The notes: a model not told the origin generated them from the letters alone. 64,000 nt of DNA from an uncultured Alphaproteobacteria bacterium (GCA_944393725.1 CALYBC010000020.1:6103-70102), one strand, 5' to 3'; positions 12,471 through 60,641 are shown, numbered from the stretch's first letter. Numbers and translations are program-made.

Positions 12471-13439
12471 TTAAGTAATTTCCGTAACCGCTCGAAGGTT
12501 ACCATCACGATTTATTTGTATAACGCGTAATTTGTGACGCATTTCTTCAATGGTCTTATTGCGATCAATTGTCGGATAGGTATGTAAAATTCTGTCGGTA
12601 AATGCTTGATATGCAGCCTCTGAACTTTCGGCGTGAATAGTTGCCAAACAGTTATCATGCCCTGACCCCATAAGCTCCCATATTGCTCCGGCATTGCTTG
12701 TTGATATCTCTCCGCCGATGATGGCATCGGGAGTAAAACGAACCACTAAGTCAATTACTTTGGCATATGTCAATGCGTTGGTTTGCTCGGTTCTTGATAA
12801 AGTTATATGTACTCTGTTTTTGTGCGGTACTATTAATTCTCGCGTATCTTCAATGGTTAAAATTCGCTTGTTGATGTCCAATATCTTCAATAAATTGTTT
12901 AAAAATGTTGTCTTACCGGTTGCCGTCGCACCGGAAACTAATATGTGGTCTCCACGACGGATACTCAGTAATAATCTCTCATAAGGGTCTTCCGGTTCTT
13001 TAATATCTTTGAGCGGATTTATTTTGTGCAGGTGACCGCCTTGCGTTAAACCATAATCGCCCAAGCCAAAAGAAACATCATCAGAGTGAATACGGATTGT
13101 TAAAGCTATGCCTCCGGTTAAATCATTATTGTCATACATGACGTTCTTGCCGCAAATTGCCGAAAAACGGTGTTCGCCGGGTATGGTGGCATAAACAACC
13201 GGGTTTCCCTGTATGGGGTCAAACGGCAATTCATAGGTGTTGGCTATAATGTATAATAAGTCGGTTAAGTATTCTTTACTTAATTTCTCATCTTTGTAGC
13301 TTGTCCAGGGATGGGCCCGTTTTCCGCGTAATCTTAACCATACCTCTCCGGCATGATTGATGGCAAGTTCTTCTATGCCATCTTGCTCATACCAATAAGA
13401 CAGCGGTCGTAAAATAGATTCCAAAACAGTAAAACTCAT
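12471..13439 (-). CDS. virB11: VirB11-family T4SS traffic ATPase
   Basis: 322 aa. Walker A GATATGKTT, Asp box ILTIEDTRELIV, Walker B RFTPDAIIGGEI, His box GHDNCLATIHAES. Confidence 0.92.
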   Translation of the reverse strand: MSFTVLESILRPLSYWYEQDGIEELAINHAGEVWLRLRGKRAHPWTSYKDEKLSKEYLTDLLYIIANTYELPFDPIQGNPVVYATIPGEHRFSAICGKNVMYDNNDLTGGIALTIRIHSDDVSFGLGDYGLTQGGHLHKINPLKDIKEPEDPYERLLLSIRRGDHILVSGATATGKTTFLNNLLKILDINKRILTIEDTRELIVPHKNRVHITLSRTEQTNALTYAKVIDLVVRFTPDAIIGGEISTSNAGAIWELMGSGHDNCLATIHAESSEAAYQAFTDRILHTYPTIDRNKTIEEMRHKLRVIQINRDGNLRAVTEIT

Positions 13440-13451
13440 TACTAAACTCCT

Positions 13452-16400
13452 CTAAAACAGTGCCGGAACACTACCGCTTTCTCCCGTATCGGCCGTGCTG
13501 CCTGCCGGCGTTTGCGGTGTGGTCGCTATATTCCCCGACGAACTCGGCGGCGGAGGCGGAACCAGCGTCTTATTTTTCTTGGGGGCATCATCTATCAACA
13601 GGGGTTGTGTATCAGCGGCAGCCGCTTCGACATTGGCCTCGTCCGGATCATACACAACCTGTGTACTTGAAGCTTTGGCAACATCCTCGCGTTGTTTCTG
13701 ACGGCTCTCTTGGTCAGTCTTAACATCGTCGATTAAGATTTCTGGCTTTTGATACTTTTGTGATTCTTCTTCGTCGCGCTCTACGCTTCTTAGCCATAAA
13801 TCAGTGTTCGGATAAACAATTATACGCGTTCCGGCCGGAATATAGGTCATTGCTTTTACATCTGTCTTATCGGCCAATATGTCATCAAACAATTCTTCCA
13901 TATCGTCCAAGAAATTCTGACGAGCGTCGTTGGCTGCCTGTTGTTTTGAGGTTTCAATTTCCCCTGCGGCGTCATCAGCAGAGGCAATAAAATATGATGC
14001 TCCCGAAGATAAAACCGTGGTTACTACCGGTAAGGTATATTTCTTGAAGAGTTGCTGGTCAACATAACCTAGAGCTCCTGCTCTACCTTGAGCATCCGCA
14101 GTTTGGCCGCTAAACACAAAGATGGAGCCGTCGGGTCTGATTAATCTTTCCCAACTGATTTGAACTCGGGCAGATTCCGAGGTTGCCTCAGCCGCCGCAG
14201 TTATGCTACCGAAACTTCCTATCATACGCGAACCGGCCGGAATTATTATGTTGCGGCCTTCTTCCGCATATACATTCCTCTCGACATAGGCAGTGATAGG
14301 AGCTGGATTGTTGGTATCTATCGCACGCGCGATTACGGCAGGAATCGGCTTATCGGAGAATATCATTTCGCTCATATCAACTCTCCATGAAGAAATCGAC
14401 TTCGGTATACCTTGCTCGGACCAATCTTTTTGGTAGCCGTCAAAAGCCTCTTTGCGAACACTTGAACCGATGTGCCCAACACTGATGTTTTGTCTTCTCT
14501 CTTGCATTGCCGCTTCAAGTGCTGCTCTGCGGGTCGGGTCGTATCTTTCGCCGGGGCCATAACCTCCACCGGGGCCTAAGTTGGCAGCACTACCTTCACC
14601 GACGCCGTAAGCTCCTCCGGGACCAAAGCTGCCGGCAGGAACAAATACTTTTCCGTCATCTTCTTTATCGCCAAAGTCTTCGGTACCTATCAGATTGCCC
14701 TCACTGTCTATTATTAAGCCGTCAGGTGTACGATATCCAATTATATTCCCTTTATCGTCAATAACCGTATCATTTTCCAAAATCTCACCAAGATACTCGC
14801 CGTCAGGGGTTAGAGCGATACCTAAAGATTTGTAATATTTGGGGTCTTCCAGCATTTTTAGTGCCGGTGATACATCTTCTTCTTGGGGCTGTTTTAGAGA
14901 ATCCAATATCGAAGTCTTATCAAACCAACTTCGTGTTTCGTCTTTTTCTGCGTCGGCCTTAGCTTTGGCTGCCGCTTCTGCTTCGGCCTTAGCTCTGGCC
15001 TCAGCCTCTGCCTTAGCTTTAGCCGCCGCCTCTGCTTCATCCACCGGAACCAATAGTTTATCTTTGTTAAAGTCATAATACTGTAATGGTCTTGCTTTAA
15101 CTATAAACTCGCCATTGTCTTTTACAATACTGCCACCGGAATTTATACTGCCTATAACATTGCCCAGATTGTCATAAACCTTACCATCTAAAGATAATTT
15201 TCCAAGAACCAAATTGGTATTGTCTCTGATATTGTAATCACGATTACCGCGACCAACTACTTGCTCCCCTTTTATAACAAAACCTAAATCATATTTGCCT
15301 AAGCTTTGGTTGTTGAAACCAAAAGCTTCGCCATTGCGGTTGACCAAACCTATAACTTGTCCGGAATTATCATAAATGTATAGATCATAGAGAGCATAAC
15401 CGATATTTTTTTCATCAGAAACAACATAGCCGTCGTAATTCACATCACCCAAAATCTCGCCTGTTGCCGATATTACCTTCCCTTGTGATGACACTCTGCC
15501 GATATATTTGTTAGACATATCAAAAGCAACCTTATACTTAAACAAATTTCCCAGAGGCAGACCGGCATTGGAATTAACATTATCATTGGGTTGCAGATAT
15601 CCTATGAGTTCATCATCATCATCGACTATTAAACCGTTTACCGTTGTGTATCCGATTATATTGCCGGCAAAGTCAATAACCGAATTAAACTCAACAGCCT
15701 TTCCGATTAGGGCTTTATTTTCGTTATATAGCTGTTTATTGTAGTCCAAACAGCCAACCTGACTACCAGTTTCATTATAAACTTTGCCGTCATTTGAAAC
15801 AAACCCTATGGTGCGACCATTAAAATCAACAACAGGCGATTGAGCTACTTTATAGCCGACCACAGCACCGCTGTCGCTGATAACAAAATCATTAGCCAAC
15901 AATTTGCCGACATATACATCTCTGTAGTTGTAAACATTTCCGTTAAAGGAAACAACGCCTATGGTTTCGCATTTGTCATTAACGGCTACACCTTGAGAAG
16001 ATAAATATCCGTTGACAATTCCGTTGTTGTCAGTACTGAGCATTCCTTCAACGACTTTACCTATTTTTGAGCCTGAGGAGTTTTTTACATTGCCGGCTAT
16101 GTCGGTGTACCCGATAAAATTACCGTTAAAGTCTAAAACCGTACCGCCATTATATGCAAAACCAATCTTGGGCATATAATTAAAATTACCTGATTGGGAT
16201 TTAGCTACGCTTGTATCCGGTAAGATTTTTCCAATATCGCTGAAAGAACGATCCAAAATGTTATTGTGATAGCTTATATTACCAAGAGTATTTCCATCAT
16301 TGTCAACAGCAACATAGTCCTTTATCTCTGAGGCAATTAGTTGGTTTTGCGGATTTAGCACATAGCCCGAGCCGACAATTTTACCGAGTTCAGCACCTTT

Positions 16401-17798
16401 GGAACTATAGGCTTTACCATCAAAGCCCAAATAAGACGAGATACTACCAAATGGTGTGTAAAAAGCCTTGGAAACGAGAGCTTGTCCGACCAAATTTCCG
16501 TCTGCGGAAAAGACATAACCTTGCGGCGAAACCGCAAGTGAGCTTTCTTTGCTCTTTATTTGGGAAGAGATTCCGCTAACGCCCAAAAATTTTCCGTCTG
16601 CCGAATATACCATTTGCGGAGAGCTAACAGCACCTATCATGCGGCCGGACAGATTATAGGCCTGGTTTCCGACCATATAACCTATAGAAGTGCCGCTTAG
16701 TGCAATAACACCGCCATTACTTAGGGCGTGCCCCACTAAAGCCCCTTTAAAATCAAATACCGGCCCGGTGGATATAATCTTACCCACAATTGCTCCAGAA
16801 CCGTCAGTTACGACACCTCTGGCTGCAATCAAGCCGCTGAACTTATCTCCTCTGGCGATATTGCCTTGCGGTAATAAACGACCAAGATATCTGCCGTTAA
16901 GATCGGTTGCCGTGGCAGAAAAACTTTCCGAACGACCACTTATATTGCCTTTAGCATCGATAATATATCCATCAGCGCGTATTTTACCTACCGACTTGTT
17001 ATCATCTATAATATCGCCGTTATAGCTAACGAAACCTAAATAAAAACCTTTGTCATCAAAAGCGTAGCCGCTGTTTACAATCCGACCGATAACCGCCCCG
17101 TCATTATTGTAAACAAAGCCATTGGCTCGTAAATGACCGATAACCACGGAATTAAAATCTGTAACCTCACCTCCGGGAACAACACTGCCAATGAAATCGC
17201 CGTTTAAGGATATTACCATGCGCGATGATATCAAACGCCCATCAAGTAAATAGTCATTACCGACTTTGCGATAAGCATAGCCGTCCGGAGTAACAATACC
17301 AATTTGCTGTCCGCTTAAATTTGCATACAAACCATCACCGGTAATGCGACCTGATATTTTTCCTTCGTCATTATAAACAAGGCCTGGAAACACAACTTGT
17401 CCTAAAATGTCAAAATATTCGTTAACCACCAAACCATTAGGTAGTGTTTTGCCCACAACTTGCCCCGAAGAACTCCTTACCGTCCCGTCGCTATTTACTT
17501 TACCCAAGAATCTGGCGTCATTTCCTATGGCTACGCCTTGCGGGACGACGCCGCCGATAATCTGCCCGTCGGAATCGAGAATAAGACTGTCTGCGGTTAT
17601 ATTGCCCAAAAGTTTGTTATCTAAACTTACAACCTTGCCGTCGGGAATTACTTTTCCTAAAACGGTGCCGTTAAAATCAATCGCCGTTATTTCTTGAGAA
17701 AACGCAGGACAAGCACAAACAATGACAGACAAAACAACTGCCGTAAAATTTATGAATAAATTATGTAGCTTCCTTATTTGCAATAATCTCATATTCAA
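13452..17798 (-). CDS. virB10: VirB10/TrbI-family protein with about 900 aa of beta-hairpin repeats and a TolA-like Ala/Lys/Glu helix between the membrane anchor and the barrel, plus a ~110-aa C-terminal tail
   Basis: 1448 aa with N-terminal anchor FINFTAVVLSVIVCACPAFS. Residues ~40-905 are 17-22-aa units (e.g. DFNGTVLGKVIPDGKVV, DSDGQIIGGVVPQGVAI). Next comes AEAAAKAKAEAEARAKAEAEAAAKAKADAE. The TrbI/VirB10 core (about 13760-14420) has the motifs IPAVIARAIDTNNPAPITAYVERNVY, IIIPAGSRMIGSFGS, RVQISWERLIRPDGS, DAQGRAGALGYVDQQL and IPAGTRIIVYPNTDL. The tail contains PPPPP. Confidence 0.9.
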   Translation of the reverse strand: MNMRLLQIRKLHNLFINFTAVVLSVIVCACPAFSQEITAIDFNGTVLGKVIPDGKVVSLDNKLLGNITADSLILDSDGQIIGGVVPQGVAIGNDARFLGKVNSDGTVRSSSGQVVGKTLPNGLVVNEYFDILGQVVFPGLVYNDEGKISGRITGDGLYANLSGQQIGIVTPDGYAYRKVGNDYLLDGRLISSRMVISLNGDFIGSVVPGGEVTDFNSVVIGHLRANGFVYNNDGAVIGRIVNSGYAFDDKGFYLGFVSYNGDIIDDNKSVGKIRADGYIIDAKGNISGRSESFSATATDLNGRYLGRLLPQGNIARGDKFSGLIAARGVVTDGSGAIVGKIISTGPVFDFKGALVGHALSNGGVIALSGTSIGYMVGNQAYNLSGRMIGAVSSPQMVYSADGKFLGVSGISSQIKSKESSLAVSPQGYVFSADGNLVGQALVSKAFYTPFGSISSYLGFDGKAYSSKGAELGKIVGSGYVLNPQNQLIASEIKDYVAVDNDGNTLGNISYHNNILDRSFSDIGKILPDTSVAKSQSGNFNYMPKIGFAYNGGTVLDFNGNFIGYTDIAGNVKNSSGSKIGKVVEGMLSTDNNGIVNGYLSSQGVAVNDKCETIGVVSFNGNVYNYRDVYVGKLLANDFVISDSGAVVGYKVAQSPVVDFNGRTIGFVSNDGKVYNETGSQVGCLDYNKQLYNENKALIGKAVEFNSVIDFAGNIIGYTTVNGLIVDDDDELIGYLQPNDNVNSNAGLPLGNLFKYKVAFDMSNKYIGRVSSQGKVISATGEILGDVNYDGYVVSDEKNIGYALYDLYIYDNSGQVIGLVNRNGEAFGFNNQSLGKYDLGFVIKGEQVVGRGNRDYNIRDNTNLVLGKLSLDGKVYDNLGNVIGSINSGGSIVKDNGEFIVKARPLQYYDFNKDKLLVPVDEAEAAAKAKAEAEARAKAEAEAAAKAKADAEKDETRSWFDKTSILDSLKQPQEEDVSPALKMLEDPKYYKSLGIALTPDGEYLGEILENDTVIDDKGNIIGYRTPDGLIIDSEGNLIGTEDFGDKEDDGKVFVPAGSFGPGGAYGVGEGSAANLGPGGGYGPGERYDPTRRAALEAAMQERRQNISVGHIGSSVRKEAFDGYQKDWSEQGIPKSISSWRVDMSEMIFSDKPIPAVIARAIDTNNPAPITAYVERNVYAEEGRNIIIPAGSRMIGSFGSITAAAEATSESARVQISWERLIRPDGSIFVFSGQTADAQGRAGALGYVDQQLFKKYTLPVVTTVLSSGASYFIASADDAAGEIETSKQQAANDARQNFLDDMEELFDDILADKTDVKAMTYIPAGTRIIVYPNTDLWLRSVERDEEESQKYQKPEILIDDVKTDQESRQKQREDVAKASSTQVVYDPDEANVEAAAADTQPLLIDDAPKKNKTLVPPPPPSSSGNIATTPQTPAGSTADTGESGSVPALF

Positions 17799-20700
17799 TT
17801 CCTCTGGTTTTTGGCGACCTCGCCTAAAACATATCCGGAAACATTTTTATCCAAATCTATAAATGAGCCGTTGCTCTTTATATAGCCAATATTTTCGCCA
17901 TTATTGTCAATAACTGTGCCATCATAAGATAACCGCCCTTTATATTTGCCGTCGTTGCCCAGTATTGTGGCTCCTATTTTATAAATTTTTCCCAATATCC
18001 TATCGTTCAAATCAATAGCCAATCCTCCGGACAGCATTCTGCCGATTATACTAGCATCTTTGCCGGTAATTGTGCCATCAAAATTTACATAACCCACAAC
18101 TTTATCATCATTGGATATTACTATGTCGCCACTTACTACCTCGCCGATAATTTTTCCGGATACTCCGATAATATTGTTGTCAGATAAAACTTTTCCTAAC
18201 GAAACACCGGCAAAATCAGTTACAGCACCGTCGGGAGACACCGATCCGATTACATTACCGCCAAAATCAACTGCAAACCCCGGATGTAGTATGTGGAGAT
18301 TTTTATCTGTTCCACCACCTGGCAGAATGGCCGTCACAATTTTCCCCGAGGGATCCAATACATCACCGAGCGAGTTAAGATATCCTTTATAATTTCCGAG
18401 GGCATCAATCATTATCCCTTCGGGTATTACTTCGCCGATGACTTCGCCGTCTTGGTTAACGACTTTTTTGTCGTGCGTTACCTGTGCCACATTTTTTCCA
18501 TCTAAACTTATTACCTTACCATCAGAAACAGCATAACCAATATATGAACCATCATAACCTATTGCGGCACCTTTTCTGATTAAACCGCCCTGATATTCGC
18601 CTTTCATATTAAAAAATTCGCCTTTGGCATTAAGCTTACCTAAGGTGTCGCCATAGCGGCTAAAGACTGTTCCGTCGTCGACTGAAGTTCCGACAACATT
18701 ACCCTTGGTATCAATAACTTCTCCTTGGAGCAATCTGGCGCCGTTTATATTGTTATATCGGCTCAAACCATTATTTTTTATGCTCCCTTGGGCAACTCCT
18801 TTGTTGTCATATATTTGCCCATCGGGAAACAATCGCCCGATAAGATTACCGCCGGAACTCGCAACAGAAGTTTTAGCAGGTACCGCAACGCCCAATATTT
18901 TGCCGCCTTCACCCAAAACAAAATTACCTGCCGTTAATCGTGCAGAGGGTTTGCCATATATGCGGACTTGCGCCTTATCATCAACACGGTTTATATATTC
19001 ACCTGAGGGCGTATAAGCGTAGCTTTCTCCTAATACGCGCCCTATATATACTCCCTTGGAATTAAATACATCGCCTAAGACCCCGACACAACCGACAGGA
19101 AGCTTGGCATCATTTATTACCATGTTGTCCATGCCTACTTTGCCAATATACCTGCCGTCTAAATCAACAGCTGCTCCTTGCTTGCCTACAGCCCCAATAA
19201 ATTCGCCGCGTTCGTTGAGTACACTGCCATCGGGATTTACACAGCCGACATAGCGATTGTTTAAGTCCTTGACTATGCCGGAATTATCAACCGTACCAAG
19301 CAAATTACAATTATTATCAAATACTCGACCGTTTTTTAGAGTTTCTCCGATGTAACGCCCCTCTGAACTCAAAACCACTCCCTCCGGAGTTATTTTATAA
19401 TTGGTTTCTTCATTGCCTTTTTTTATCTTGCCGTCTTTGTCCAAATACCCAATTTGATTGCATCCGTAGCCTATTATCATACCGGCTCGAACCATTTTAG
19501 CAACGACCTTGGCCCCATTGGGATCTTTGACTAAACCATTGGGCAACGCTCTGCCGACAATTTGGTCTTTATCGTTTTTGATACTGCCGTCATTTTGCAG
19601 TGTGCCCAACAAATTACCCTGCGGAGTTATGGCTATTTTATCAAACATAACCAACTGTCCTAACACATTGGTCGCCGAATCAAAAACTATTTCCTCTCCG
19701 GCATAGCCGATAACTTCACCGTCGAGATTTACTATCGTTCCGTCAGGAAGCATTTTGCCAATAACATTGCCATTGGCATCCAGAAGATTTCCGTTTTCAT
19801 CAACATATCCAATTATATTGCCGTTGGCGTCATAAGCAACGCGAACTTTTTTACCATCAAGAGGCGAAGATTTCTTTATTATGTTGCCGTTGGCATCAAC
19901 ATAGCCAACAATATTCCCGTTCGCGTCAACAACCGTACCGTCGGGTAAAACAACGCCTAATACATTGCCGTTTTCATCTAAGGCCACGCGTCCGGGCTGC
20001 GTAACTCTGCCTATAACCTTGCCATTGAGATCGACCACCGTACCGTCGGGCATAACACGGCCGATTACATTGCCGTTTTCATCAACAACCGTACCATCGG
20101 GTAGTACACGACCGATTACATTGCCGTTTTCATCATAGACATAGCCGGTTTCAACCGCCCGGCCGATGACTTTACCATCTTTGTCAACAACCGTGCCGTC
20201 GGGCAATACACGACCGATTACATTACCGTCTAAATCAACAACCGAGCCATCAGGATTGACATAACCGATTAAATTGCCAAACTCATCATATACGGCTCGC
20301 CGATTTTCTGCCACGCCGATTACATTACCGTCTTTGTCAACTATCAGGCCGTCGGGCCCAACTTTTCCGATTATATTGCCGTTAGCATCTCTTACAAAGC
20401 CGTCTTCGTCTATAACACCTATAATCTTACCATCCGGTCCTATGGCATAGCGAACACCTTTGGTATTTTTATCTGATGTTGTCGTGCCACCGGGAGCTGT
20501 TTCGCAATATGTACAGTCTTCTTTGGTAACAGCATTGCCCGTTACCGGAACTTTAGCAGCCTTAATACTTGAATTACCTAAATTTACTTCGTGCCAGGAA
20601 ACAATGAAATTGTTTTGCACATTGCCGGCGACCACCGGAACCCAACTCATCGTAATGTGGCAGGTCTTGTCGCCTTCCAATGTCATGCCGGTACAACGGT

Positions 20701-21100
20701 CGGTAAAAGTGAAGCCGGCGGCCGGCGGATCGGCTAATGATACAGAATCTATCTTGATTGCGGCTTTGCCGTTTGTACCCAGTGTCAAAACATTTTTTGC
20801 TTCGGTACCGAGTACAACCTCTCCTATCGGAACCGGATCGGGGGTGGTAGTAAGAGGTATCTCCCCTTCGATTGTGGAAAATTCTATGCTTTGCGTGGGC
20901 GTGGTAGTAGGAATTGCACCAAACACATCGGCGTTATCCGTAAATACCGGCTCTTCATATGTATCTATACTATCTCCGCTGTTTAGTAAGAGTAACAAAC
21001 CAAAAATAAATATCAGCAAAGAGGCAATACCAATCATCAAAATTATGGTATTGGTTTTTTTGACATATTTTTCGGAATGTGTTAACGGCTCTTTGCTCAT
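17795..21100 (-). CDS. 1101-aa membrane-anchored protein: Ig-like beta-sandwich domain plus about 880 aa of the same beta-hairpin repeat family as VirB10
   Basis: TM IILMIGIASLLIFIFGLLLLL. The segment PIGEVVLGTEAKNVLTLGTNGKAAIKIDSVSLADPPAAGFTFTDRCTGMTLEGDKTCHITMSWVPVVAGNVQNNFIVSW looks like a PapD/ASH/DUF1573-type sandwich. This is followed by repeats such as PDGTVVDKDGKVIGRAV, YDENGNVIGRVL and PDGTVVDENGNVIGRVM. Its stop overlaps the virB10 start by 4 nt. Confidence 0.8.
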   Translation of the reverse strand: MSKEPLTHSEKYVKKTNTIILMIGIASLLIFIFGLLLLLNSGDSIDTYEEPVFTDNADVFGAIPTTTPTQSIEFSTIEGEIPLTTTPDPVPIGEVVLGTEAKNVLTLGTNGKAAIKIDSVSLADPPAAGFTFTDRCTGMTLEGDKTCHITMSWVPVVAGNVQNNFIVSWHEVNLGNSSIKAAKVPVTGNAVTKEDCTYCETAPGGTTTSDKNTKGVRYAIGPDGKIIGVIDEDGFVRDANGNIIGKVGPDGLIVDKDGNVIGVAENRRAVYDEFGNLIGYVNPDGSVVDLDGNVIGRVLPDGTVVDKDGKVIGRAVETGYVYDENGNVIGRVLPDGTVVDENGNVIGRVMPDGTVVDLNGKVIGRVTQPGRVALDENGNVLGVVLPDGTVVDANGNIVGYVDANGNIIKKSSPLDGKKVRVAYDANGNIIGYVDENGNLLDANGNVIGKMLPDGTIVNLDGEVIGYAGEEIVFDSATNVLGQLVMFDKIAITPQGNLLGTLQNDGSIKNDKDQIVGRALPNGLVKDPNGAKVVAKMVRAGMIIGYGCNQIGYLDKDGKIKKGNEETNYKITPEGVVLSSEGRYIGETLKNGRVFDNNCNLLGTVDNSGIVKDLNNRYVGCVNPDGSVLNERGEFIGAVGKQGAAVDLDGRYIGKVGMDNMVINDAKLPVGCVGVLGDVFNSKGVYIGRVLGESYAYTPSGEYINRVDDKAQVRIYGKPSARLTAGNFVLGEGGKILGVAVPAKTSVASSGGNLIGRLFPDGQIYDNKGVAQGSIKNNGLSRYNNINGARLLQGEVIDTKGNVVGTSVDDGTVFSRYGDTLGKLNAKGEFFNMKGEYQGGLIRKGAAIGYDGSYIGYAVSDGKVISLDGKNVAQVTHDKKVVNQDGEVIGEVIPEGIMIDALGNYKGYLNSLGDVLDPSGKIVTAILPGGGTDKNLHILHPGFAVDFGGNVIGSVSPDGAVTDFAGVSLGKVLSDNNIIGVSGKIIGEVVSGDIVISNDDKVVGYVNFDGTITGKDASIIGRMLSGGLAIDLNDRILGKIYKIGATILGNDGKYKGRLSYDGTVIDNNGENIGYIKSNGSFIDLDKNVSGYVLGEVAKNQRN
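19927..20236. repeat. Near-identical 51-nt coding repeats inside the 1101-aa gene
   Basis: Units of the type AACAACCGTACC(G/A)TCGGG(T/C)A...ACACG(A/G)CCGATTACATTGCCGTTTTCATC occur at about 19927, 20033, 20084 and 20186. Confidence 0.8.
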
Positions 21101-21107
21101 ATGTACC

Positions 21108-22682
21108 TTATTGCGTCCTTACCACACTGCAGAACACTCCGTTGCGACCCAATTCGCCGCATATTTTATCGCCGGCATTTAAGTCTTTTACCGGACCTAC
21201 ACGAAGATGAAACAGTTCTTTACCTTGGCCGTCCGCCGGAGCATCAACCGAGAAAAACGGAGAGAATCCTCCTAAAATATCGCTATACTGCGAGGACAAC
21301 TTATCCCATAGCGTTTCAAGCTCATTTACATTAGAGTTAGCACCAAGCTCAATTGAAATATTTGAGTTGTCGCCTGAAACTATTCCCGTACCGTAAGTGT
21401 AATTTGGCTGAGGAACGGTAGATGTACCGGTGTTGCTTATTCTCTGCATCTTTGAGTAATCAAAATTATCGGCGACATTGGCGACATTCATACCGTTTTG
21501 ACCGCTTCTGGTATATTCCGGCACAATAATCTGGCTCTGTCCGGCTTGAATATCCATTTGTCCTCCGACTTGGAGCGGCGTGGCGTTGGCTTTGGCATTA
21601 TATCCCATAGTTTGCTGATTGGGAATAGCCGGTGCAACCTCCCATTGCGGCGGCAAGTAGTCTGCAGAATCGATAGCGTATTCCAGACCGCTTTCATCGG
21701 AGCGGCGCATCTTTATGCAAATAAGTCTTTTGCCGTTACGCAAGACCATGTCTCCGATACCCTCGACGATAATCAGTCTGTTGTCCGGCCCTTTGGTTCT
21801 GAAGCCGACCGGAACTTCGACTCTCTCGACAATCATACTGACAACCGGTCTTTGGGTCATATTCAAAGCTTTTTTACCTAAATCAATATAAGTAAAGATA
21901 TTGTCGCGCCATACTCTTTCGGGGGCTATAACGACATCATCGGGATTGGGAACATAAACCTCCAAATCAAATCTGAAGTCGCTGGGGTCGACAGGAATAC
22001 TTTTTATCCAATCGCTGTTTTGATTTCTTCTGGTGTAGGTCGAGGCAAGAGATTTTCCTCCCGATGACGACAAACCGCCGTTGGTAGCTCCGGCAACACC
22101 ACCTGACGGTAAGTTACCGCTTGGGCCGTTACCCTGACCATCAACAACCTCAATATCAATTATTGCGTTCGTAAGTCTTTCGGTATTAACGGCTTCGGAC
22201 TTCACATAAAAAACATATCGATTTCCGGAACGGCCGAAAACAATTATGTTGGTATCAACACCAACATTAGAACCTTTGCGAGGATATAGCAAAAGTGTGG
22301 ATGGGCCGGATATTTGCCCGTCAAATGTTGCACTGTCTCCAATAAATATATCTTCAATCAACTCCCACGAGGGGAAGTTAATCATAGTAATCATTCCCTC
22401 GCGAACTCTTATCGGTAAGACCAAATCCGGTGTCCAATAATATTTGGAATAGGCCGGCTTGCTCTGTCCCTCGCCTAAGTTCTGCAAAGGATCAAGCCAG
22501 GCTGCCTGCGTCATGCCGAGAGAATTGAAGCCGGCGTAGTTAAGATTCATCGGCGTGTAATTACCTTGAGCCTGCTCGGCACTGGCATCCATCATCTGCT
22601 GGTCAACCTGAGATTTGGCCTCAAAAGAAACCATCATCGCCAATACTAATAACAAAAATTTTATCTTTATATTTTTCGACAC
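21108..22682 (-). CDS. virB9: VirB9/CagX/TrbG-family protein with a C-terminal SPOR-like peptidoglycan-binding domain
   Basis: 524 aa with a signal peptide. VirB9 N-domain: YYWTPDLVLPIRVREGMITMINFPSWELIEDIFIGDSATF ... IIVFGRSGNRYVFYVKS. VirB9 C-domain: RVWRDNIFTYIDLG ... LIIVEGIGDMVLRNGKRLICIKM. The last ~85 aa, ISIELGANSNVNELETLWDKL ... FHLRVGPVKDLNAGDKICGELGRNGVFCSVV, fit the SPOR pattern. Confidence 0.88.
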   Translation of the reverse strand: MSKNIKIKFLLLVLAMMVSFEAKSQVDQQMMDASAEQAQGNYTPMNLNYAGFNSLGMTQAAWLDPLQNLGEGQSKPAYSKYYWTPDLVLPIRVREGMITMINFPSWELIEDIFIGDSATFDGQISGPSTLLLYPRKGSNVGVDTNIIVFGRSGNRYVFYVKSEAVNTERLTNAIIDIEVVDGQGNGPSGNLPSGGVAGATNGGLSSSGGKSLASTYTRRNQNSDWIKSIPVDPSDFRFDLEVYVPNPDDVVIAPERVWRDNIFTYIDLGKKALNMTQRPVVSMIVERVEVPVGFRTKGPDNRLIIVEGIGDMVLRNGKRLICIKMRRSDESGLEYAIDSADYLPPQWEVAPAIPNQQTMGYNAKANATPLQVGGQMDIQAGQSQIIVPEYTRSGQNGMNVANVADNFDYSKMQRISNTGTSTVPQPNYTYGTGIVSGDNSNISIELGANSNVNELETLWDKLSSQYSDILGGFSPFFSVDAPADGQGKELFHLRVGPVKDLNAGDKICGELGRNGVFCSVVRTQ

Positions 22683-22688
22683 TTTTTT

Positions 22689-23423
22689 CTACCCTACTTT
22701 ATTGCGGCTCAACGCATATCTATAAACCGTAAAACCAACCGGATTTTTTAGTCTATCGCCGTATTTCACGCTCTTGCGACGGTATCCGACATTAAGAGAG
22801 GCCGTCCAGTAGCCTATCTCCGGTTCTGCCGATGACGGATACATATCTCGAGTTTCGTACTCTACCTGCCAAACACCATCAGTAAGCTCGTTAACCGATA
22901 ATATTTTTACACTGCGTTCCATACCCTGATTTTTTATTATATCAACCGCCCTCTTGGCAACATTATCCAAAAAATCTTGGTAAACTCGGTTATCTGACAT
23001 TTCTTGTATCGGACCACCGGGCATCCAACGGGCTTCAACCTCGGCAACATCGCTGCTGAAAGTGCTGCGTAAAAGAACATACTCTCTGACAAAAACCTCG
23101 GTAATTGCTTTGCGATTTCTGAGCTCGGTGGTTATCGGCTGAATATTATAAACTTGTTCGGAACGATTTTGAAAGGTAAGCAGAAACGGCTCAATGCGGT
23201 ACAACGGAATAACCTGTAAAATTGCCAGTATCAAAACTATATTACAACATAAACTAAACGCCGTAATAACGGCAAATGCACGGGCAGTCCACAAATATCT
23301 TTTCTCGGCAATATTGGCAACAAAAACCTCATCGCGTACCGGTTTCTTTGCCTCCGGACGCCTAGAAGCATTTTGACTACCAATAAGCCTTGGCTGAGGT
23401 TTGTTTCCTTCTATTCCATCCAC
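22689..23423 (-). CDS. virB8: VirB8-family protein (paralog 2)
   Basis: 244 aa with N-terminal TM FAVITAFSLCCNIVLILAIL, then IEPFLLTF, FVREYVLLRSTF, and the C-terminal NPVGFTVYRY signature. Confidence 0.88.
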   Translation of the reverse strand: MDGIEGNKPQPRLIGSQNASRRPEAKKPVRDEVFVANIAEKRYLWTARAFAVITAFSLCCNIVLILAILQVIPLYRIEPFLLTFQNRSEQVYNIQPITTELRNRKAITEVFVREYVLLRSTFSSDVAEVEARWMPGGPIQEMSDNRVYQDFLDNVAKRAVDIIKNQGMERSVKILSVNELTDGVWQVEYETRDMYPSSAEPEIGYWTASLNVGYRRKSVKYGDRLKNPVGFTVYRYALSRNKVG

Positions 23424-23440: not shown

Positions 23441-23629
23441 CTAAATCGTTGCTATAAACCAATCAGGTAAAGTTTTAGGCAATTCAATCTCCATGCAAGC
23501 ACATGGCGACAACTTTAGTTCATCGGCACCGGTACCAATACCGACAGGCTCCGGTTCATAGTAGGAACCATAACAACCTGACAAAGCCAGCAAACCGACA
23601 AATATCAACATTTTTAAGCGATTATTCAT
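23441..23629 (-). CDS. virB7: Small lipoprotein, VirB7-like by size and position
   Basis: 62 aa with lipobox LALSGC. It sits between two virB8 genes upstream of virB9. Confidence 0.6.
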   Translation of the reverse strand: MNNRLKMLIFVGLLALSGCYGSYYEPEPVGIGTGADELKLSPCACMEIELPKTLPDWFIATI

Positions 23630-23733: not shown

Positions 23734-24489
23734 TTAGAATATTTCGACTTCGGTCTGCGAATAACGGGTGACGGTGAAGCCTAACGGATTTATTAAACGC
23801 GTGGCAACAAATGCCCTTTCAGGGATAAAATATGCCGTGATGGATGAAGTCCAATATCTGACACGCAGTGTGGTTTCTTGCTGAGCTTGAGTCTTGCCTT
23901 GCTCATTATATAGATCATAGGTTTTGAAATCGACTTTCCACACGGCCGAGCGTTTGCCGCCCTGACGAGTCACCGAGATTATCTCGACCTCTCTGACCAA
24001 AGTTTGCTTGAAGATATTTTCCCAAACCTGTTTGGTGGCATTACCAAACTCATTATATACCTCGGGAGATGAAAGATAGTTTAACATTCCACCGCCCATC
24101 CAGCGACTGCGCATTTCAACCGGATCATTGATTATGGTATTGCGAAGAATTACATATTGCCGAATAAACATTTCAAGCAATTTATCTTTTGAGGTCATAT
24201 CTTGTGAGATAGCCTCATTGCGTACAATATTTTCCGATTCACTTTGATTGATTAGTAAAAACGGTTCAACCTCGACCATCGGAGCAAGTCTAAATAATGC
24301 CAATGACGCCATTACAAAGAACATCATGGATATTGTGGCCGTGACAATAAAAAAACGCGAAACCCACAGATAATATGTTTGGCGAAAAGTACTCTGCTCT
24401 TCTTCCAATTCGTTTATGTATTGCGGAGCTTTGGCATTGCCTTCTATGGCAAGGGTCTTTGTACCGCCCGAAAGCTGTCTGGTTTCCAT
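23734..24489 (-). CDS. virB8: VirB8-family protein (paralog 1)
   Basis: 251 aa with TM FFIVTATISMMFFVMASLALF, then VEPFLLINQ, MFIRQYVILRNT, and the C-terminal INPLGFTVTRY signature. Confidence 0.88.
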   Translation of the reverse strand: METRQLSGGTKTLAIEGNAKAPQYINELEEEQSTFRQTYYLWVSRFFIVTATISMMFFVMASLALFRLAPMVEVEPFLLINQSESENIVRNEAISQDMTSKDKLLEMFIRQYVILRNTIINDPVEMRSRWMGGGMLNYLSSPEVYNEFGNATKQVWENIFKQTLVREVEIISVTRQGGKRSAVWKVDFKTYDLYNEQGKTQAQQETTLRVRYWTSSITAYFIPERAFVATRLINPLGFTVTRYSQTEVEIF

Positions 24490-27500: not shown

Positions 27501-28338
27501 AATTATAAGACACTTGTGCAAACGCTAAAGGAAAGCTTTGGCGAATACTAAAGGCATAATCTTGCCTTTTATGCGCTCTCTCAATTAGTGAGGAAGTATT
27601 GCCCGAAGATTTTGTCTGCACTTGCGGGGAAATTTTCTTCATCATTTGTACGGCTTTAAGGCGAGCTTTTAACGCGGCAACGCTTTCCCAAAGTCTGACG
27701 ACGCTGTCGTATGCTTCCAAAGTTTTGCCGTAGGCATATAAAACCTCGTTGTTGCCACCATCGTCACTGGAAGGATAGCCGCATAATTCTCCGTCTCCTT
27801 CGGCACAAGACTTAGCTATTTCGATTTTTGAACTAATTTCATTTTCAACATCTTGTTGCATGATTTTTGATGCTATATATATCGCGTATATATTGTTTAT
27901 ATAGAATAAATCGCGCTGCTTCATCACGGCATTTTTATGAGCTATACGGTCATTTTTGTAGGTTAGTAGTATCTCTTTCATTTTTTGGGCCATCTGGCGA
28001 ACTCTGATATCTTCTATATCGTAACCACAGTAGCCTGATTTGCTTTGACCGGGAAGACCGTCTACCTCTAGTATGGCTCCGCTTTTTATGTTGTTAAAGG
28101 TGGTTGTTGCGGCTGATTGCATGTTACTGATATCTGCTTTTCCTTGCAAAATTATTTGCTGGCTTTGATTTATGGTGCTTTGTAGATTTCCGGCTACCTG
28201 CGTTACTTCTTCAGGAATATCTAGTGTAATAGATGTGGGAAGAGCGTGATATGCAAAATCCCACGGCATTTGTGCATAAACACCGCTCGGAGCAAGGGAG
28301 ATAAATAAAATTAAAAAATATCCAACCAGCTTTTTCAT
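24505..28338 (-). CDS. 1277-aa secreted, largely alpha-helical/coiled-coil protein, function unknown (in the virB5/virB6 slot)
   Basis: Signal peptide MKKLVGYFLILFISLAPSGVYAQ. Long heptad-like Q/E/K/A/S-rich stretches. The SFPLAFAQV motif is shared with the 386-aa protein (SYPLAFASI). One C-x7-C loop (CAEGDGELC) and several further Cys in the C-terminal ~350 aa. Confidence 0.75.
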   Translation of the reverse strand: MKKLVGYFLILFISLAPSGVYAQMPWDFAYHALPTSITLDIPEEVTQVAGNLQSTINQSQQIILQGKADISNMQSAATTTFNNIKSGAILEVDGLPGQSKSGYCGYDIEDIRVRQMAQKMKEILLTYKNDRIAHKNAVMKQRDLFYINNIYAIYIASKIMQQDVENEISSKIEIAKSCAEGDGELCGYPSSDDGGNNEVLYAYGKTLEAYDSVVRLWESVAALKARLKAVQMMKKISPQVQTKSSGNTSSLIERAHKRQDYAFSIRQSFPLAFAQVSYNSVSGSLSDIEAAAVMQNDESIRLVKQTVEFVSPAEADNEHPLVAAEDKLAALDSLSSAETDVTTAMNAHNMIKQIKEYRKTAEELIKMQDDYNESLQRLKSSEQCAIKYLSHYFSNPVTVWSGVSLGENVNRHDLRKGISAWAIDAYETAKAAETTTVEAEDVAQISLDSEELEALSDDPDMQKSEEAGQNIDVSINKSQQETSQDEGRKSDMMSWQIGAEAAKMLAQEPKKWGNPNNNKMIWTDTKSFYGQYLKRKYENIKEYLKQYTKNDVLAIVVSRLQGKNQDISDTKYQQNLRNIQKEAAAKILQNQQDSSAALSQYSGSMKSSLDSLEKQREELIAKMDDVNGKISSASDEVADMRSVAQDNALQDLDSTVNAKVVYPDVDSTVIPADNEKIIGVDALSEVAQSNISANTNDSRIKTLNNSISSNKKILSKYETELASLDDKIAEAKLAMQESAANSMDKKADAADKIKADVATAATASSEDYAKDVKKNLRAILKEKAEDNPAIDVVFTMLSAETAANRSLNALYKQVDIIVDESYNRIMAMGDSLYLPSSHSKIVAIHNEMISKLKALTLAYSLSGVVEINNVAVYAKLLATDSGTESEGFFVGAAPKARDMKAPYAIPDYSLPPVREVFHFDSTDFGGIKPTGKGLEKRSITASEFLNYGGEVPQIWQDMLKQNAFIESDFNLKEALDIGCYNEAFSRGGIMPCVVDGYSEVLDINTSGNYRARKDLAKGSLPRCILVKVKNGKLYHSMYDSKVDLGLNTSGVEKPGCEYSELGMILEADKKNNLKIRKRLYNTYSDMLANEDSTKLTDAKKNKISLGNHASISRNQIGDFLRHVENEKLQKENLEEYQQRYEKDMEDLVASLEEYGFSPTEDFDLRNESDYNLAVNKLKDIEKQKISSAQAVISATDTTDNEPVKEKIGDLNTLIYVMEQDKNYVMKVSSVTADIDDINSEIKKAEADSAAVDKYENSLKAQEDDYNDPTEPYCANYW

Positions 28339-53745: not shown

Positions 53746-53767
53746 CTTCTTTGCAGGAGATAAAAAA

Positions 53768-56417: not shown

Positions 56418-56444
56418 CTTTAATTTAATTGGTTAAGGTGGAAA

Positions 56445-58118: not shown

Positions 58119-58133
58119 TTTGAGGGCGATAAA

Positions 58134-59270: not shown

Positions 59271-59279
59271 GAAGTGATT

Positions 59280-59870: not shown

Positions 59871-59982
59871 AATTGTTTACTTTATTTTAAGCTATTTGTG
59901 TATACACTAAGCGTAAATTTAGTTTTTGGTTGTATAAAAACAAATATGAGTGTAGAATAAATATATTAGGAATACTTAATTT

Positions 59983-60585: not shown

Positions 60586-60608
60586 CTATATAGCTTGATG
60601 AAAAATAT

Positions 60609-60638: not shown

Positions 60639-60641
60639 AGT

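What the first reader, a model, noticed from the sequence alone, without database searches (positions are those of the whole stretch)
17795..21100. 1101-aa partner protein built from the same repeat family, translationally coupled to virB10
This protein lies between virB9 and virB10, a position normally empty. It has an N-terminal TM anchor and an Ig-like sandwich domain with a C-x-x-x-x-x-x-x-x-x-x-C pair (TDRCTGMTLEGDKTC). After that come about 880 aa of the VirB10-type hairpin repeats, here in their most regular 17-aa form (PDGTVVDENGNVIGRVL). Its stop overlaps the virB10 start (ATGA, 17795-17798). Two adjacent proteins carrying ~1800 aa of one repeat family suggests they co-assemble into one repeat-based structure attached to the T4SS core.
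Basis: partly seen in the sequence, partly recalled or inferred. Interest (0 to 1): 0.8.

Follow-up and report, generated by a model that had tools for sequence, protein, structure and literature searches.

The report
Split giant VirB10, inner-membrane half
The 1101-residue "partner" is the inner-membrane-anchored front half of a giant, repeat-filled VirB10 secretion-system protein that split into two genes in a widespread group of uncultured gut bacteria, so the one protein thought to span the whole cell envelope here comes in two pieces.

Summary
The ORF is real: 17795..21100, minus strand, 1101 aa. It has a short cytoplasmic tail, one TM helix, an ASH/PapD-like beta-sandwich with an invariant C-x10-C pair, and about 50 beta-hairpins of 17 aa. 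The next gene, virB10, carries the same hairpin family (Pfam Bflower_2, E 1e-61 and 5e-60).

The claimed ATGA overlap is wrong. The stop is TGA (17797-17795). The likely virB10 start is the ATG at 17792, 2 nt downstream, and its Shine-Dalgarno lies inside the partner's last codons.

The decisive result is comparative. In 72 of 72 species-level gut and rumen alphaproteobacterial MAG loci with both genes complete, the gene directly precedes virB10. In three basal lineages there is no separate gene. There, one giant VirB10 of 1507-2350 aa carries the same tail, TM and ASH module at its N-terminus, then hairpins, then the TrbI barrel. The window's two proteins align colinearly to the two halves of such a protein (E 2e-131 and 2e-117).

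The split VirB10s have gained a Sec-type signal peptide. A rooted tree gives one derived fission.

So this is VirB10's own N-terminal half. Non-covalent reassembly with the outer-membrane half is inferred, not shown. I found no publication describing it.

The parts
17795..21100 (-). Whole gene: N-terminal half of a split giant VirB10 (1101 aa plus TGA stop)
   Evidence: ORF list and translation. Full-length orthologues at 67-79% and about 40% identity. Colinear with residues 1-1090 of the unsplit VirB10 P0156, E 2e-131. dN/dS about 0.02 against the nearest species.
21050..21100 (-). Cytoplasmic N-terminal tail, res 1-17 (MSKEPLTHSEKYVKKTN)
   Evidence: L6, T7, Y12, K15 and T16 are invariant in 24 orthologues. 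The block conservation of 0.84 over 77 species is among the highest in the protein. The tail also aligns with the N-terminus of unsplit VirB10 P0069. A cytoplasmic location is inferred from the basic residues that precede the TM.
20984..21049 (-). Single transmembrane helix, about res 18-39
   Evidence: It is the only strongly hydrophobic segment in the protein: 19-aa Kyte-Doolittle windows above 1.6 span res 13-46, peak 3.03. The AF2 model has a helix at 11-39.
20528..20851 (-). ASH/PapD-like beta-sandwich, res 84-191, with invariant C136-x10-C147
   Evidence: AF2 strands at 84-191, pLDDT 70-82. Foldseek matches the CEP192 ASH domain 6fvi (TMt 0.65) and the HYDIN PapD-like domain 2e6j (TMt 0.70), prob 1.0. 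Pfam ASH and NCBIfam choice_anch_D hits are below their cut-offs. The Cys residues are invariant.
20504..20515 (-). Invariant C196-x-x-C199 motif after the sandwich
   Evidence: Invariant in 24 orthologues and in the 11-member N-module alignment. Aligned to Cys pairs in unsplit P0156, P0186, P0069 and P0261, but not P0220.
17828..20461 (-). Array of about 50 beta-hairpins of 17 aa (res 214-1091), beta-flower-type sequence family
   Evidence: Pfam Bflower_2 at 206 bits, plus Bflower, DUF3659 and RHS_repeat hits. Period-17 autocorrelation z 9-14. AF2 gives 98 short strands, with 10-residue-block pLDDT mostly 82-93 over res 500-1090. Invariant Cys at 547, 598, 620 and 671.
19691..20461 (-). Most regular 17-aa units (res 214-470). 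Probably where length varies between species.
   Evidence: HMM built from the seed units scores 13-30 bits only in this stretch. The DNA tandem repeat of period 51 at 19926-20357 has 66-76% matches. The A1 alignment needs 1608 columns for a 1101-aa reference and its consensus is undefined in an inserted stretch of this N-proximal part. Partner length is 1037-1839 aa. The location of the length variation was not mapped directly.
17798..17878 (-). Conserved C-terminal segment (res 1075-1101, ...KSNGSFIDLDKNVSGYVLGEVAKNQRN); proposed docking end
   Evidence: Nearly invariant in the 24 orthologues. Block conservation is 0.89 over the 77 species. An interface role is inferred.
17801..17804 (-). Shine-Dalgarno (GAGG) for virB10, inside the partner's last codons
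   Evidence: Sequence. GGAGGA or GAAGGA is seen at the same place in nearly all of the 72 related junctions.
13452..17792 (-). virB10 C-terminal half (1446 aa from ATG 17792): signal peptide, about 50 hairpins, Ala/Lys/Glu-rich coiled coil, TrbI barrel, Pro-rich tail
   Evidence: Translation. Pfam TrbI E 1.6e-34 and Bflower_2 E 5e-60. The C-terminal domain matches PDB chains ComB10, CagY, TrwE and TraF. Residues 45-1377 are colinear with P0156 892-2102, E 2e-117.
17697..17792 (-). Sec-type signal peptide of the split VirB10 (res 1-32, ...PAFS|QEITAIDFNG)
   Evidence: In 77 orthologues the first 20 residues are weakly conserved (block conservation 0.26). Each N-terminus has a basic stretch, a hydrophobic stretch and an AxA-like site, followed by an almost invariant mature N-terminus QEITAI(D/N)FNG. 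No signal-peptide predictor was available and cleavage is untested.
13791..14363 (-). TrbI/VirB10 beta-barrel domain
   Evidence: Pfam PF03743 at 119.9 bits, NCBIfam T4SS_VirB10 and ComB10 hits (below their cut-offs), and PDB 2bhv E 5e-18.
21108..22682 (-). virB9 (CagX domain plus C-terminal SPOR), immediately upstream with a 7-nt gap
12471..13439 (-). virB11 ATPase, immediately downstream of virB10
   Evidence: Pfam T2SSE. tblastn hits annotated virB11 on plasmids.

Best explanation
The gene encodes the N-terminal half of a giant VirB10 that underwent gene fission.

Ancestral form (still a single ORF in basal relatives): cytoplasmic tail, TM helix, ASH-like sandwich, 45-100 beta-hairpins of 17 aa, TrbI barrel.

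The split: in the common ancestor of a large clade of gut and rumen Alphaproteobacteria, the ORF broke inside the hairpin array.
- The upstream piece (this gene) kept the tail, the TM, the ASH domain and about 50 hairpins.
- The downstream piece kept about 50 hairpins plus the outer-membrane barrel, and acquired a Sec signal peptide.
- The two are translated as a coupled pair, because the Shine-Dalgarno for virB10 lies in the last codons of this gene.

Likely function (inferred):
- This protein supplies the 'Cyto' and 'IM' parts of VirB10. These contact VirB4, VirD4 and VirB6 at the inner membrane.
- Its disulfide-stabilised periplasmic hairpin array docks non-covalently onto the hairpin array of the exported C-terminal half. 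The conserved new C-terminus would meet the conserved new mature N-terminus.
- That docking would rebuild the inner-to-outer-membrane bridge that VirB10 normally forms as one chain.
For: Shown:
- Same repeat family and same period in both proteins.
- In all 72 species-level loci with both genes complete, the gene directly abuts virB10. The N-module was found in 194 genomes.
- Three lineages have no separate gene. Their VirB10s (P0069 1507 aa, P0186 2350 aa, P0156 2201 aa; also P0220 and P0261) carry the homologous tail, TM and ASH module at residues 1 to about 205, then Bflower repeats, then TrbI.
- Partner 1-1072 aligns to P0156 1-1090 (E 2e-131) and VirB10 45-1377 to P0156 892-2102 (E 2e-117).
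- The partner's Cys pattern with spacing 51-22-51 recurs at the matching place in P0156.
- P0156 is not an assembly artefact: its cluster holds 141 members, the 15 listed being 2201-2202 aa, seen on many contigs.
- Split VirB10s begin with a variable signal-peptide-like segment followed by an invariant mature end. Unsplit ones have the N-terminal TM as their one strong hydrophobic segment; P0186, P0220 and P0261 also show weaker internal windows just above the cut-off.
- In an NJ tree of VirB9, VirB11 and TrbI rooted on a canonical plasmid system, the split clade is monophyletic in 200 of 200 bootstraps and the unsplit forms in 0 of 200.
- Purifying selection is strong on every part (dN/dS about 0.02).
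- The two termini created by the split are among the most conserved segments.

Established knowledge: canonical VirB10 spans from cytoplasm to outer membrane and has Cyto, IM, Arches, I-layer and O-layer subdomains (PMC12624023).
Against: - No physical evidence shows that the two halves bind each other. The tools returned no inter-chain prediction and no model coordinates.
- Part of the C-terminal conservation (RRN) is forced by the embedded Shine-Dalgarno.
- The split pair holds more hairpins (about 100) than some unsplit proteins (about 46 in P0069). Fission was therefore accompanied by expansion or internal duplication, and the exact break point cannot be mapped, because local alignments near it are register-ambiguous.
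- The outgroup is distant (40% identity in VirB11). The basal position of L089 has only 70% bootstrap support.
- Signal-peptide cleavage is judged by eye, not by a predictor or an experiment.
Confidence: 0.75

Rival explanations
1. It is a true accessory partner. The separate gene is ancestral, and the single-ORF giants in L089, L091 and L093 arose by gene fusion. In this reading the protein is an added scaffold rather than part of VirB10.
For: Fused and split forms both exist. The direction of change rests on a rooted NJ tree with a distant outgroup, and one key node has 70% support.
Against: - Unsplit forms are never monophyletic (0 of 200 bootstraps), so at least two independent fusions would be needed against one fission.
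- Canonical VirB10s, including the outgroup's 548-aa protein, begin with a tail and a TM anchor (PMC12624023). The split VirB10s lack this and have a signal peptide in its place.
Confidence: 0.1
2. After fission the N-half became independent (neofunctionalised). It would be an inner-membrane-anchored periplasmic scaffold or cell-wall or ligand binder that no longer contacts the VirB10 barrel half. The T4SS would then work with an outer-membrane-only VirB10.
For: - The downstream VirB10 has its own export signal and could reach the outer-membrane complex alone.
- The lengths of the two proteins are essentially uncorrelated (r = -0.21).
- Hairpin repeats of this kind resemble cell-wall-binding or CROP-type repeats locally (PMC10584680).
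Against: - Adjacency is kept in all 72 complete pairs and near-universal translational coupling has been kept since the clade's origin.
- The cytoplasmic tail is invariant, which fits retained contacts at the inner-membrane complex.
- Both new termini are highly conserved.
- Fused forms in sister lineages imply a joint function.
Confidence: 0.12
3. It is an artefact or a pseudogene: one giant virB10 broken by a sequencing or assembly error or by a recent inactivating mutation. A programmed frameshift or read-through that restores one chain is a variant of this idea.
For: One related locus (L008) does show a false split caused by a scaffold gap.
Against: - The same break occurs in 72 independent species-level genomes. 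Each has a conserved C-terminus, an embedded Shine-Dalgarno and a signal peptide on the downstream ORF.
- dN/dS is about 0.02 on both genes.
- The stop-to-start gap varies (-1, 1, 2, 3 or 4 nt), so there is no conserved frame relation for recoding.
Confidence: 0.02
4. It is an Rhs/YD-repeat shell protein of the polymorphic-toxin type that happens to be encoded in the T4SS operon.
For: Pfam RHS_repeat (72 bits) and NCBIfam YD_repeat_2x hits. The top low-probability Foldseek hits of the fragment model are Rhs effectors.
Against: - No toxin-domain family was hit in the Pfam or NCBIfam scans. An Rhs core or aspartyl-protease motif was not searched for specifically.
- The 17-aa period matches the beta-flower models far better (206 bits).
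- Foldseek probability is at most 0.15 and TM at most 0.16 against Rhs cocoons.
- The protein is orthologous to the N-half of VirB10.
Confidence: 0.01

Closest known systems
Canonical VirB10 / TrwE / TraF (P-type T4SS; PF03743 TrbI)
   Same: - Same operon slot, between virB9 and virB11.
- Taken together, the pair reproduces the VirB10 layout: short cytoplasmic tail, one TM helix, a periplasmic spacer, and a C-terminal barrel that matches ComB10, TrwE and TraF structures.
- The partner corresponds to the 'Cyto plus IM' subdomains described in PMC12624023.
   Different: - Canonical VirB10 is one chain of about 380-550 aa with a Pro-rich spacer.
- Here the spacer is about 1700 aa of beta-hairpins plus an ASH-like domain.
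- The chain is cut in two, and the barrel half is exported by a signal peptide.
- The partner alone has no TrbI domain.
Helicobacter pylori CagY (VirB10 orthologue with large repeat regions)
   Same: It is a VirB10 homologue enlarged about four-fold by internal repeats upstream of the barrel domain (PMC5954226). CagY's C-terminal domain is among the PDB matches of the window's VirB10.
   Different: - CagY is a single gene.
- Its middle repeat region undergoes in-frame recombination during infection, which changes T4SS function (PMC5954226).
- Here the repeats are only 66-76% alike at the DNA level and are under strong purifying selection (97% aa identity with saturated dS).
- Its repeats are described as a different set of sequence motifs; I did not compare the two directly.
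Legionella Dot/Icm DotG with DotF
   Same: - DotG is a VirB10-type protein enlarged by a variable repeat region upstream of its TrbI domain (PMC6761968).
- DotF is a separate component of the core complex together with DotG (PMC7511231, PMC3676331). From my own knowledge, not checked here, it is a single-pass inner-membrane protein.
- So the system resembles a two-protein bridge from inner to outer membrane.
   Different: - DotG repeats are pentapeptide repeats.
- From my own knowledge, not checked here, DotG keeps its own N-terminal membrane anchor.
- I know of no evidence that DotF derives from DotG. Here the two proteins are demonstrably halves of one ancestral gene.
Beta-flower proteins (Pfam PF21784, PF21785, PF21786; clan CL0395; Durairaj et al. 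2023, PMC10584680)
   Same: Sequence family of short beta-hairpins with a [DNEQ]xxG turn. The hits are strong (206 and 200 bits against a cut-off of 38).
   Different: - The described beta-flowers are small closed barrels of about 100 aa with 4-6 hairpins, known only from predictions and with no known function.
- Here about 50 hairpins run in tandem in each of two T4SS proteins.
- Whether they close into flowers or form a continuous rod could not be determined (no coordinates were returned; no 5-unit super-period).
ASH / PapD-like / MSP-type Ig domains (PF15780; NCBIfam choice-of-anchor D)
   Same: The fold of residues 84-191 matches them (Foldseek prob 1.0, TMt 0.65-0.70). The representative-library search found proteins with up to 36 copies of the same domain type.
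   Different: The sequence scores are below the curated cut-offs (18.8 against 27 bits; 25.2 against 45 bits). I found no report of this domain in a VirB10, though I did not search for one specifically.

Membership tests
VirB10/TrbI family (PF03743) | C-terminal TrbI beta-barrel domain | tested here: not met
   The 1101-aa protein has no TrbI hit in Pfam or NCBIfam and no PDB sequence match. The domain lies in the next gene (119.9 bits).
VirB10/TrbI family (PF03743) | N-terminal short cytoplasmic tail plus a single inner-membrane TM helix | tested here: met
   There is one hydrophobic segment (Kyte-Doolittle windows res 13-46) preceded by KK, and an AF2 helix at 11-39. The topology is inferred, not measured.
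VirB10/TrbI family (PF03743) | Homology to (part of) a bona fide VirB10 | tested here: met
   Residues 1-1072 align to residues 1-1090 of P0156, a 2201-aa protein with a C-terminal TrbI domain that is encoded between virB9 and virB11 (E 2e-131). The same holds for P0186, P0220, P0069 and P0261.
VirB10/TrbI family (PF03743) | Position in a virB-type operon between virB9 and virB11 | tested here: met
   The order is virB8, virB7-like, virB8, virB9, this gene, virB10, virB11 in the window and in all related loci examined.
Beta-flower (PF21785 Bflower_2, clan CL0395) | Profile match above the Pfam gathering score; hairpin unit with a [DNEQ]xxG turn | tested here: met
   206.2 bits against a cut-off of 38, in 7 stretches. 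Units such as PDGTVVDENGNVIGRVL carry D/N-x-x-G turns.
Beta-flower (PF21785 Bflower_2, clan CL0395) | Closed shallow barrel of 4-6 hairpins | tested here: inconclusive
   The AF2 models are confident (fragment pLDDT 87, pTM 0.74), but no coordinates were returned. No PDB fold match was found (TM at most 0.16). No 4-, 5- or 6-unit super-period is visible in the sequence.
Rhs/YD-repeat proteins | YD repeats forming a cocoon, with an Rhs core and a C-terminal toxin | tested here: not met
   The repeat profile hits (72 bits), but no toxin domain was detected in the family scans and an Rhs core motif was not searched for specifically. Foldseek probability to Rhs structures is at most 0.15 and TM at most 0.16.
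ASH/PapD-like domain (PF15780) | Profile match above the gathering score | tested here: not met
   18.8 bits against a cut-off of 27 (E 0.0019). NCBIfam choice_anch_D gives 25.2 bits against 45.
ASH/PapD-like domain (PF15780) | Seven- to eight-stranded Ig-like sandwich superposable on solved ASH domains | tested here: met
   Foldseek hits 6fvi, 2e6j and 7ptb at prob 1.0, with TMt 0.65-0.70 for the single-domain targets 6fvi and 2e6j. The model's pLDDT is 70-82 in this region.
Sec-exported protein (for the downstream VirB10 half) | Cleavable N-terminal signal peptide: basic stretch, hydrophobic stretch and an AxA site | tested here: inconclusive
   The pattern was seen by eye across the N-termini of the split VirB10s printed, followed by an invariant QEITAI mature end. 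No predictor was available and cleavage is untested.

The most novel reading that the evidence does not exclude
A natural two-piece VirB10.
- The energy-sensing inner-membrane anchor and the outer-membrane gate are separate polypeptides.
- They re-join through complementary beta-hairpin (beta-flower-type) arrays.
- If copy numbers match the roughly 14-fold outer-membrane cores solved for other T4SSs (my assumption, not tested), this would build a periplasmic scaffold of tens of chains with about 900 repeat residues each.
- The system belongs to a T4SS that is very common in uncultured human-gut Alphaproteobacteria.

If true, this gives the beta-flower fold its first biological role. It also gives a built-in test of whether VirB10 must be covalently continuous to couple ATPases to the outer-membrane gate.
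Probability: 0.4. Interest if true: 0.8.

Novelty: new variant of a known kind. Interest (0 to 1): 0.66.

Why it matters
VirB10 is described as the key T4SS component. [quoted passage not shown]

Here that covalent continuity has been lost and the loss has been kept under strong selection. The clade holds at least 72 species-level genomes, and one VirB10 variant alone is seen on 230 contigs. This is a natural experiment on how that coupling works.

It also places the beta-flower repeat family in a defined machine. That family has so far been a purely predicted fold with no known function. The result shows that periplasmic spacers of T4SSs can grow to about 1700 residues.

Practically, public MAG annotations call these proteins 'DUF3659 domain-containing' or 'hypothetical'. 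They could be re-annotated as the VirB10 N-terminal and C-terminal halves.

Tried and rejected
- A 17-aa seed HMM built from the regular units found only the first 15 or so units. BLOSUM autocorrelation was needed to show the period across both arrays.
- I looked for a super-period of 4, 5 or 6 units that would indicate discrete beta-flowers. None was found.
- I tried to map the break point by local alignment of the partner's C-terminus and the VirB10 N-terminus to the unsplit proteins. The hits were register-ambiguous repeat matches only.
- L008 looked like a relative with a short 276-aa partner. It is a scaffold-gap artefact of the 2201-aa gene seen intact in L093.
- Foldseek of the whole model and of a C-terminal fragment against the PDB matched nothing for the hairpin array. 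A PDB sequence search also found nothing.
- Profile comparison of the N-module with the N-terminal region of a canonical plasmid VirB10 gave only a weak hit around the Cys pair (E 0.011, probability 3.9%). I treat it as a lead, not as evidence.
- Literature searches for an RF32 T4SS or a split VirB10 found nothing relevant.
- I considered a chimeric or linked two-chain AF2 run. I did not run it, because the tool returns no PAE or coordinates, so an interface could not be judged.
- Read-through or frameshift fusion is rejected because the stop-to-start spacing varies in frame between species.

Full report
**1. What is in the window**

The minus-strand ORF 17795..21100 encodes 1101 aa. It lies in a virB-type operon whose members, read 5' to 3' on the minus strand, are:
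- a VirB2-like gene (41689-42378)
- virB4 (33210-35639)
- several large genes with no family match
- two virB8 paralogues (23734-24489 and 22689-23423), separated by a 62-aa lipoprotein gene (23441-23629; LALSGC lipobox)
- virB9 (21108-22682; CagX plus SPOR)
- the gene in question
- virB10 (TrbI domain at the C-terminus)
- virB11 (12471-13439)

**2. Checking the observation**

The protein has these parts:
- A 17-residue basic tail.
- One strong hydrophobic segment (Kyte-Doolittle windows res 13-46, peak 3.03), which the AF2 model folds as a helix at 11-39.
- A low-confidence linker.
- A beta-sandwich at 84-191.
- 98 short strands from 217 to 1091, which is about 49 hairpins of roughly 17.9 aa each.

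The whole-protein model has mean pLDDT 77 and pTM 0.61, and 10-residue-block pLDDT is mostly 82-93 over residues 500-1090.

Foldseek against the PDB matches only the sandwich. The hits are ASH/PapD-like domains of CEP192 and HYDIN (prob 1.0, TMt 0.65-0.70).

The motif TDRCTGMTLEGDKTC is C136-x10-C147. All eight cysteines (136, 147, 196, 199, 547, 598, 620, 671) are invariant in 24 orthologues. That fits a periplasmic, disulfide-bonded protein.

Period-17 autocorrelation is strong across the whole array of this protein (z 9.4-14.5). It is also clear across VirB10 residues 30-930 (z 5.6-9.3), and absent from the N-module and from the TrbI part.

Both proteins hit the same Pfam families: Bflower_2 (206 and 200 bits against a cut-off of 38), Bflower, DUF3659 and RHS_repeat. 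BLASTP aligns partner 219-1081 with VirB10 37-890 (E 2e-62).

The 'ATGA' overlap is not there. The sequence reads ...CAGAGGAATTGAATATGAGA....
- The stop is TGA at 17797-17795.
- TTG at 17798 is only the mechanical first start codon.
- The ATG at 17792 has GAGG 8 nt upstream and is the likely start, 2 nt after the stop.

**3. Relatives**

A protein search found full-length orthologues at 67-79% and about 40% identity. It also found many giant VirB10s with the same repeats. One of these, named 'Azospirillum sp.' in an NCBI MAG, is seen on 230 contigs.

A scan of one genome per species with the N-module profile found 194 genomes. The 80 returned were nearly all gut, rumen or faecal MAGs labelled Alphaproteobacteria, proteobacterium, 'Azospirillum sp.' or Candidatus Scatocola; one carries a Bacteroidaceae label.

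In all 72 loci where both genes are complete, this gene is directly followed by virB10. The gap is 1-4 nt in 63 of them and -4 to +6 nt in 69. GGAGGA is embedded in the last codons (...AKNRRN*). Lengths vary: 1037-1839 aa for this protein and 1398-1886 aa for VirB10, with r = -0.21.

**4. The decisive finding**

Three other lineages have the same operon but no separate gene between virB9 and virB10. They are L089 (P0069, 1507 aa), L091/L092 (P0186, 2350 aa) and L093 (P0156, 2201 aa).

- Each of these VirB10s starts with a homologue of the partner's tail, TM and ASH module. For P0069 the match is E 2e-23 over 187 aa. P0156, P0186, P0220 and P0261 match at residues 1 to about 205 in an all-against-library search. 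The module is followed by Bflower repeats and ends with TrbI.
- The window's two proteins align colinearly to the two halves of P0156. Partner 1-1072 aligns to 1-1090 (E 2e-131), and VirB10 45-1377 aligns to 892-2102 (E 2e-117).
- The partner's cysteine spacing of 51-22-51 recurs at the corresponding place in P0156 (528, 578, 600, 651).
- The unsplit ORF is not an artefact. The P0156 cluster holds 141 members, and the 15 listed are 2201-2202 aa and come from many samples.
- An apparent short partner in L008 is a scaffold gap in that same gene.

**5. What changed at the split**

Every split VirB10 begins with about 25-35 poorly conserved residues. The first 20 have block conservation 0.26. Each has basic residues, a hydrophobic stretch and an AxA-like site. 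An almost invariant QEITAI(D/N)FNG..GKVIPDGKVV follows.

I read this as a Sec signal peptide. No predictor was available, and cleavage is inferred.

The unsplit proteins have the N-terminal TM as their one strong hydrophobic segment; three of the five also show weaker internal windows just above the cut-off. So the barrel half has lost the membrane anchor, and this gene retains it.

The new C-terminus of this protein (block conservation 0.89) and the new mature N-terminal 160 residues or so of VirB10 (about 0.8, similar to the TrbI domain) are among the most conserved parts. The middle of the VirB10 array is the least conserved (0.42-0.55).

**6. Direction of change**

I built an NJ tree from VirB9, VirB11 and TrbI (852 columns). 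It is rooted on a canonical Sphingosinicella plasmid system, in which virB9 is directly followed by a 548-aa virB10 that has an N-terminal TM.

- L089 is placed basally, then L091 and L093, then a single split clade.
- The split clade is monophyletic in 200 of 200 bootstraps.
- The unsplit forms are monophyletic in 0 of 200.
- L089 lies outside the rest in 140 of 200.

Canonical VirB10s carry the tail and TM (PMC12624023). Taken together, this points to one fission at the base of the gut clade.

**7. Selection**

Against the nearest species, amino-acid identity is 94-95% while synonymous sites are saturated. dN/dS is about 0.02 for the N-module, the regular repeats, the degenerate repeats and the VirB10 repeats.

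At the DNA level only the first repeats form a detectable tandem array (period 51, 66-76% matches). These are conserved structural repeats, not CagY-like recombining ones.

**8. Mechanism**

Shown: the identity of the protein as the VirB10 N-half, the shared repeats, the coupling and the conservation.

Inferred:
- The protein sits N-in in the inner membrane.
- Its tail takes over the contacts of VirB10 'Cyto/IM' with VirB4, VirD4 and VirB6 (PMC12624023).
- Its disulfide-stabilised hairpin array extends into the periplasm.
- The array re-associates non-covalently with the array of the exported barrel half, probably through the two conserved new termini, and so restores the bridge from inner to outer membrane.

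Fused forms in sister lineages are the classical genomic argument for such an interaction.

The three-dimensional form of the arrays is undecided. It could be strings of closed beta-flowers or a continuous rod. A fragment model (residues 836-1101) is confident (pLDDT 87, pTM 0.74), but no coordinates were available. The PDB has no counterpart: the best hits are Rhs and clostridial CROP hairpin repeats at prob 0.15 or less and TM 0.16 or less. No 4-6-unit super-period shows in the sequence.

**9. Comparison with known systems**

- The pair together is a VirB10. This protein alone fails the family's defining TrbI domain but is homologous to the N-half of true VirB10s.
- CagY is the closest case of repeat enlargement. 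It is a single gene, and its middle repeat region recombines in frame during infection (PMC5954226).
- DotG with DotF is the closest two-protein analogy. DotG has pentapeptide repeats upstream of its TrbI domain (PMC6761968). I know of no evidence that DotF derives from DotG.
- The repeats belong to the beta-flower sequence family (PMC10584680). That family is known only from predictions and has no assigned function.
- I found no paper on this T4SS, on an RF32-type gut alphaproteobacterial T4SS, or on a split VirB10. Public records name the protein 'DUF3659 domain-containing'.

**10. Verdict**

It is wrong that this gene is an added partner: it is half of VirB10.
- Novelty: a new variant of a known kind.
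- Interest: moderate to high.

Noticed in passing
window 23441-23629 (-): A 62-aa ORF with a lipobox (MNNRLKMLIFVGLLALSGC...) sits between the two virB8 paralogues. An ORF of 58-65 aa holds the same position in every related locus (L001, L003, L005, L007, L089-L093). It is probably the VirB7 lipoprotein. No family hit was recorded for it.
   Followed up: partly
window 21108-22682 (-), residues 440-522: VirB9 carries a C-terminal SPOR (peptidoglycan-binding) domain (Pfam E 1.6e-4, just above the cut-off). The orthologue in L001 has a faint hit to the same domain. I do not know of this in canonical VirB9 proteins.
   Followed up: no
window 13452-17792 (-): residues about 915-950 (DNA 14947-15035) and the last 110 residues or so: VirB10 has an Ala/Lys/Glu-rich, TolA-like coiled-coil segment between the hairpin array and the barrel. 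It is also a 24-30-nt DNA tandem repeat. After the TrbI domain there is a Pro-rich tail (PPPPPSSSG...PALF), and its last residues are conserved (0.83).
   Followed up: no
P0156 (locus L093 10001-16606), residues 528-651 and 1103-1227: The four-cysteine pattern with spacing 51-22-51 occurs twice in the unsplit 2201-aa VirB10, 575 aa apart. This suggests a large internal duplication of the hairpin array before or around the time of the split. The window's VirB10 keeps one Cys pair with spacing 73 (608 and 681).
   Followed up: partly
window 9719-12385 (-): An 888-aa ORF directly follows virB11, where virD4 sits in the Sphingosinicella plasmid operon used as outgroup (L094). It has no Pfam or NCBIfam family. 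No VirD4 or relaxase family was hit among the window ORFs I scanned, which were most but not all of them.
   Followed up: partly
window 1807-3111 (-), 47478-49520 (-), 24505-28338 (-), 36087-41648 (-): There are several VirB6/TrbL-like genes: two with Pfam hits, plus a 1277-aa gene in the virB6 position. A 1853-aa protein has weak TrbC/VirB2-like matches next to a 229-aa VirB2-like gene. Together with the duplicated virB8, this expansion of paralogues is reminiscent of Rickettsiales rvh systems.
   Followed up: no
window 49686-61511 (+): A separate cluster on the plus strand contains a secretin (52120-53745), a PilO-type pilin accessory protein (53768-55102) and a T2SSE-type ATPase (56445-58118). 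It looks like a type IVb (thin-pilus-like) pilus or related secretion system.
   Followed up: no
window 5821-6792 (+): A regulator with two HTH_3 domains lies near the T4SS genes. A similar double-HTH gene lies next to the T4SS loci L005 and L007, so it may be the system's regulator.
   Followed up: no
L094 7353-8999 (Sphingosinicella plasmid VirB10), residues 104-142: This canonical-size VirB10 has, just after its TM helix, a C-x11-C segment (TTDCTAGKPLPMGQRCTATVTFDP) that weakly resembles the partner's ASH-domain Cys pair (hhalign E 0.011, probability 3.9%). It hints that an Ig-like module after the TM may be older than the repeat expansion.
   Followed up: partly
representative-library hits, e.g. 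P0121 (4358 aa, 36 stretches), P0128, P0129, P0130: The ASH-like domain of the N-module has hundreds of relatives arranged as long tandem arrays in very large proteins elsewhere in the metagenomic protein universe. These were not examined.
   Followed up: no
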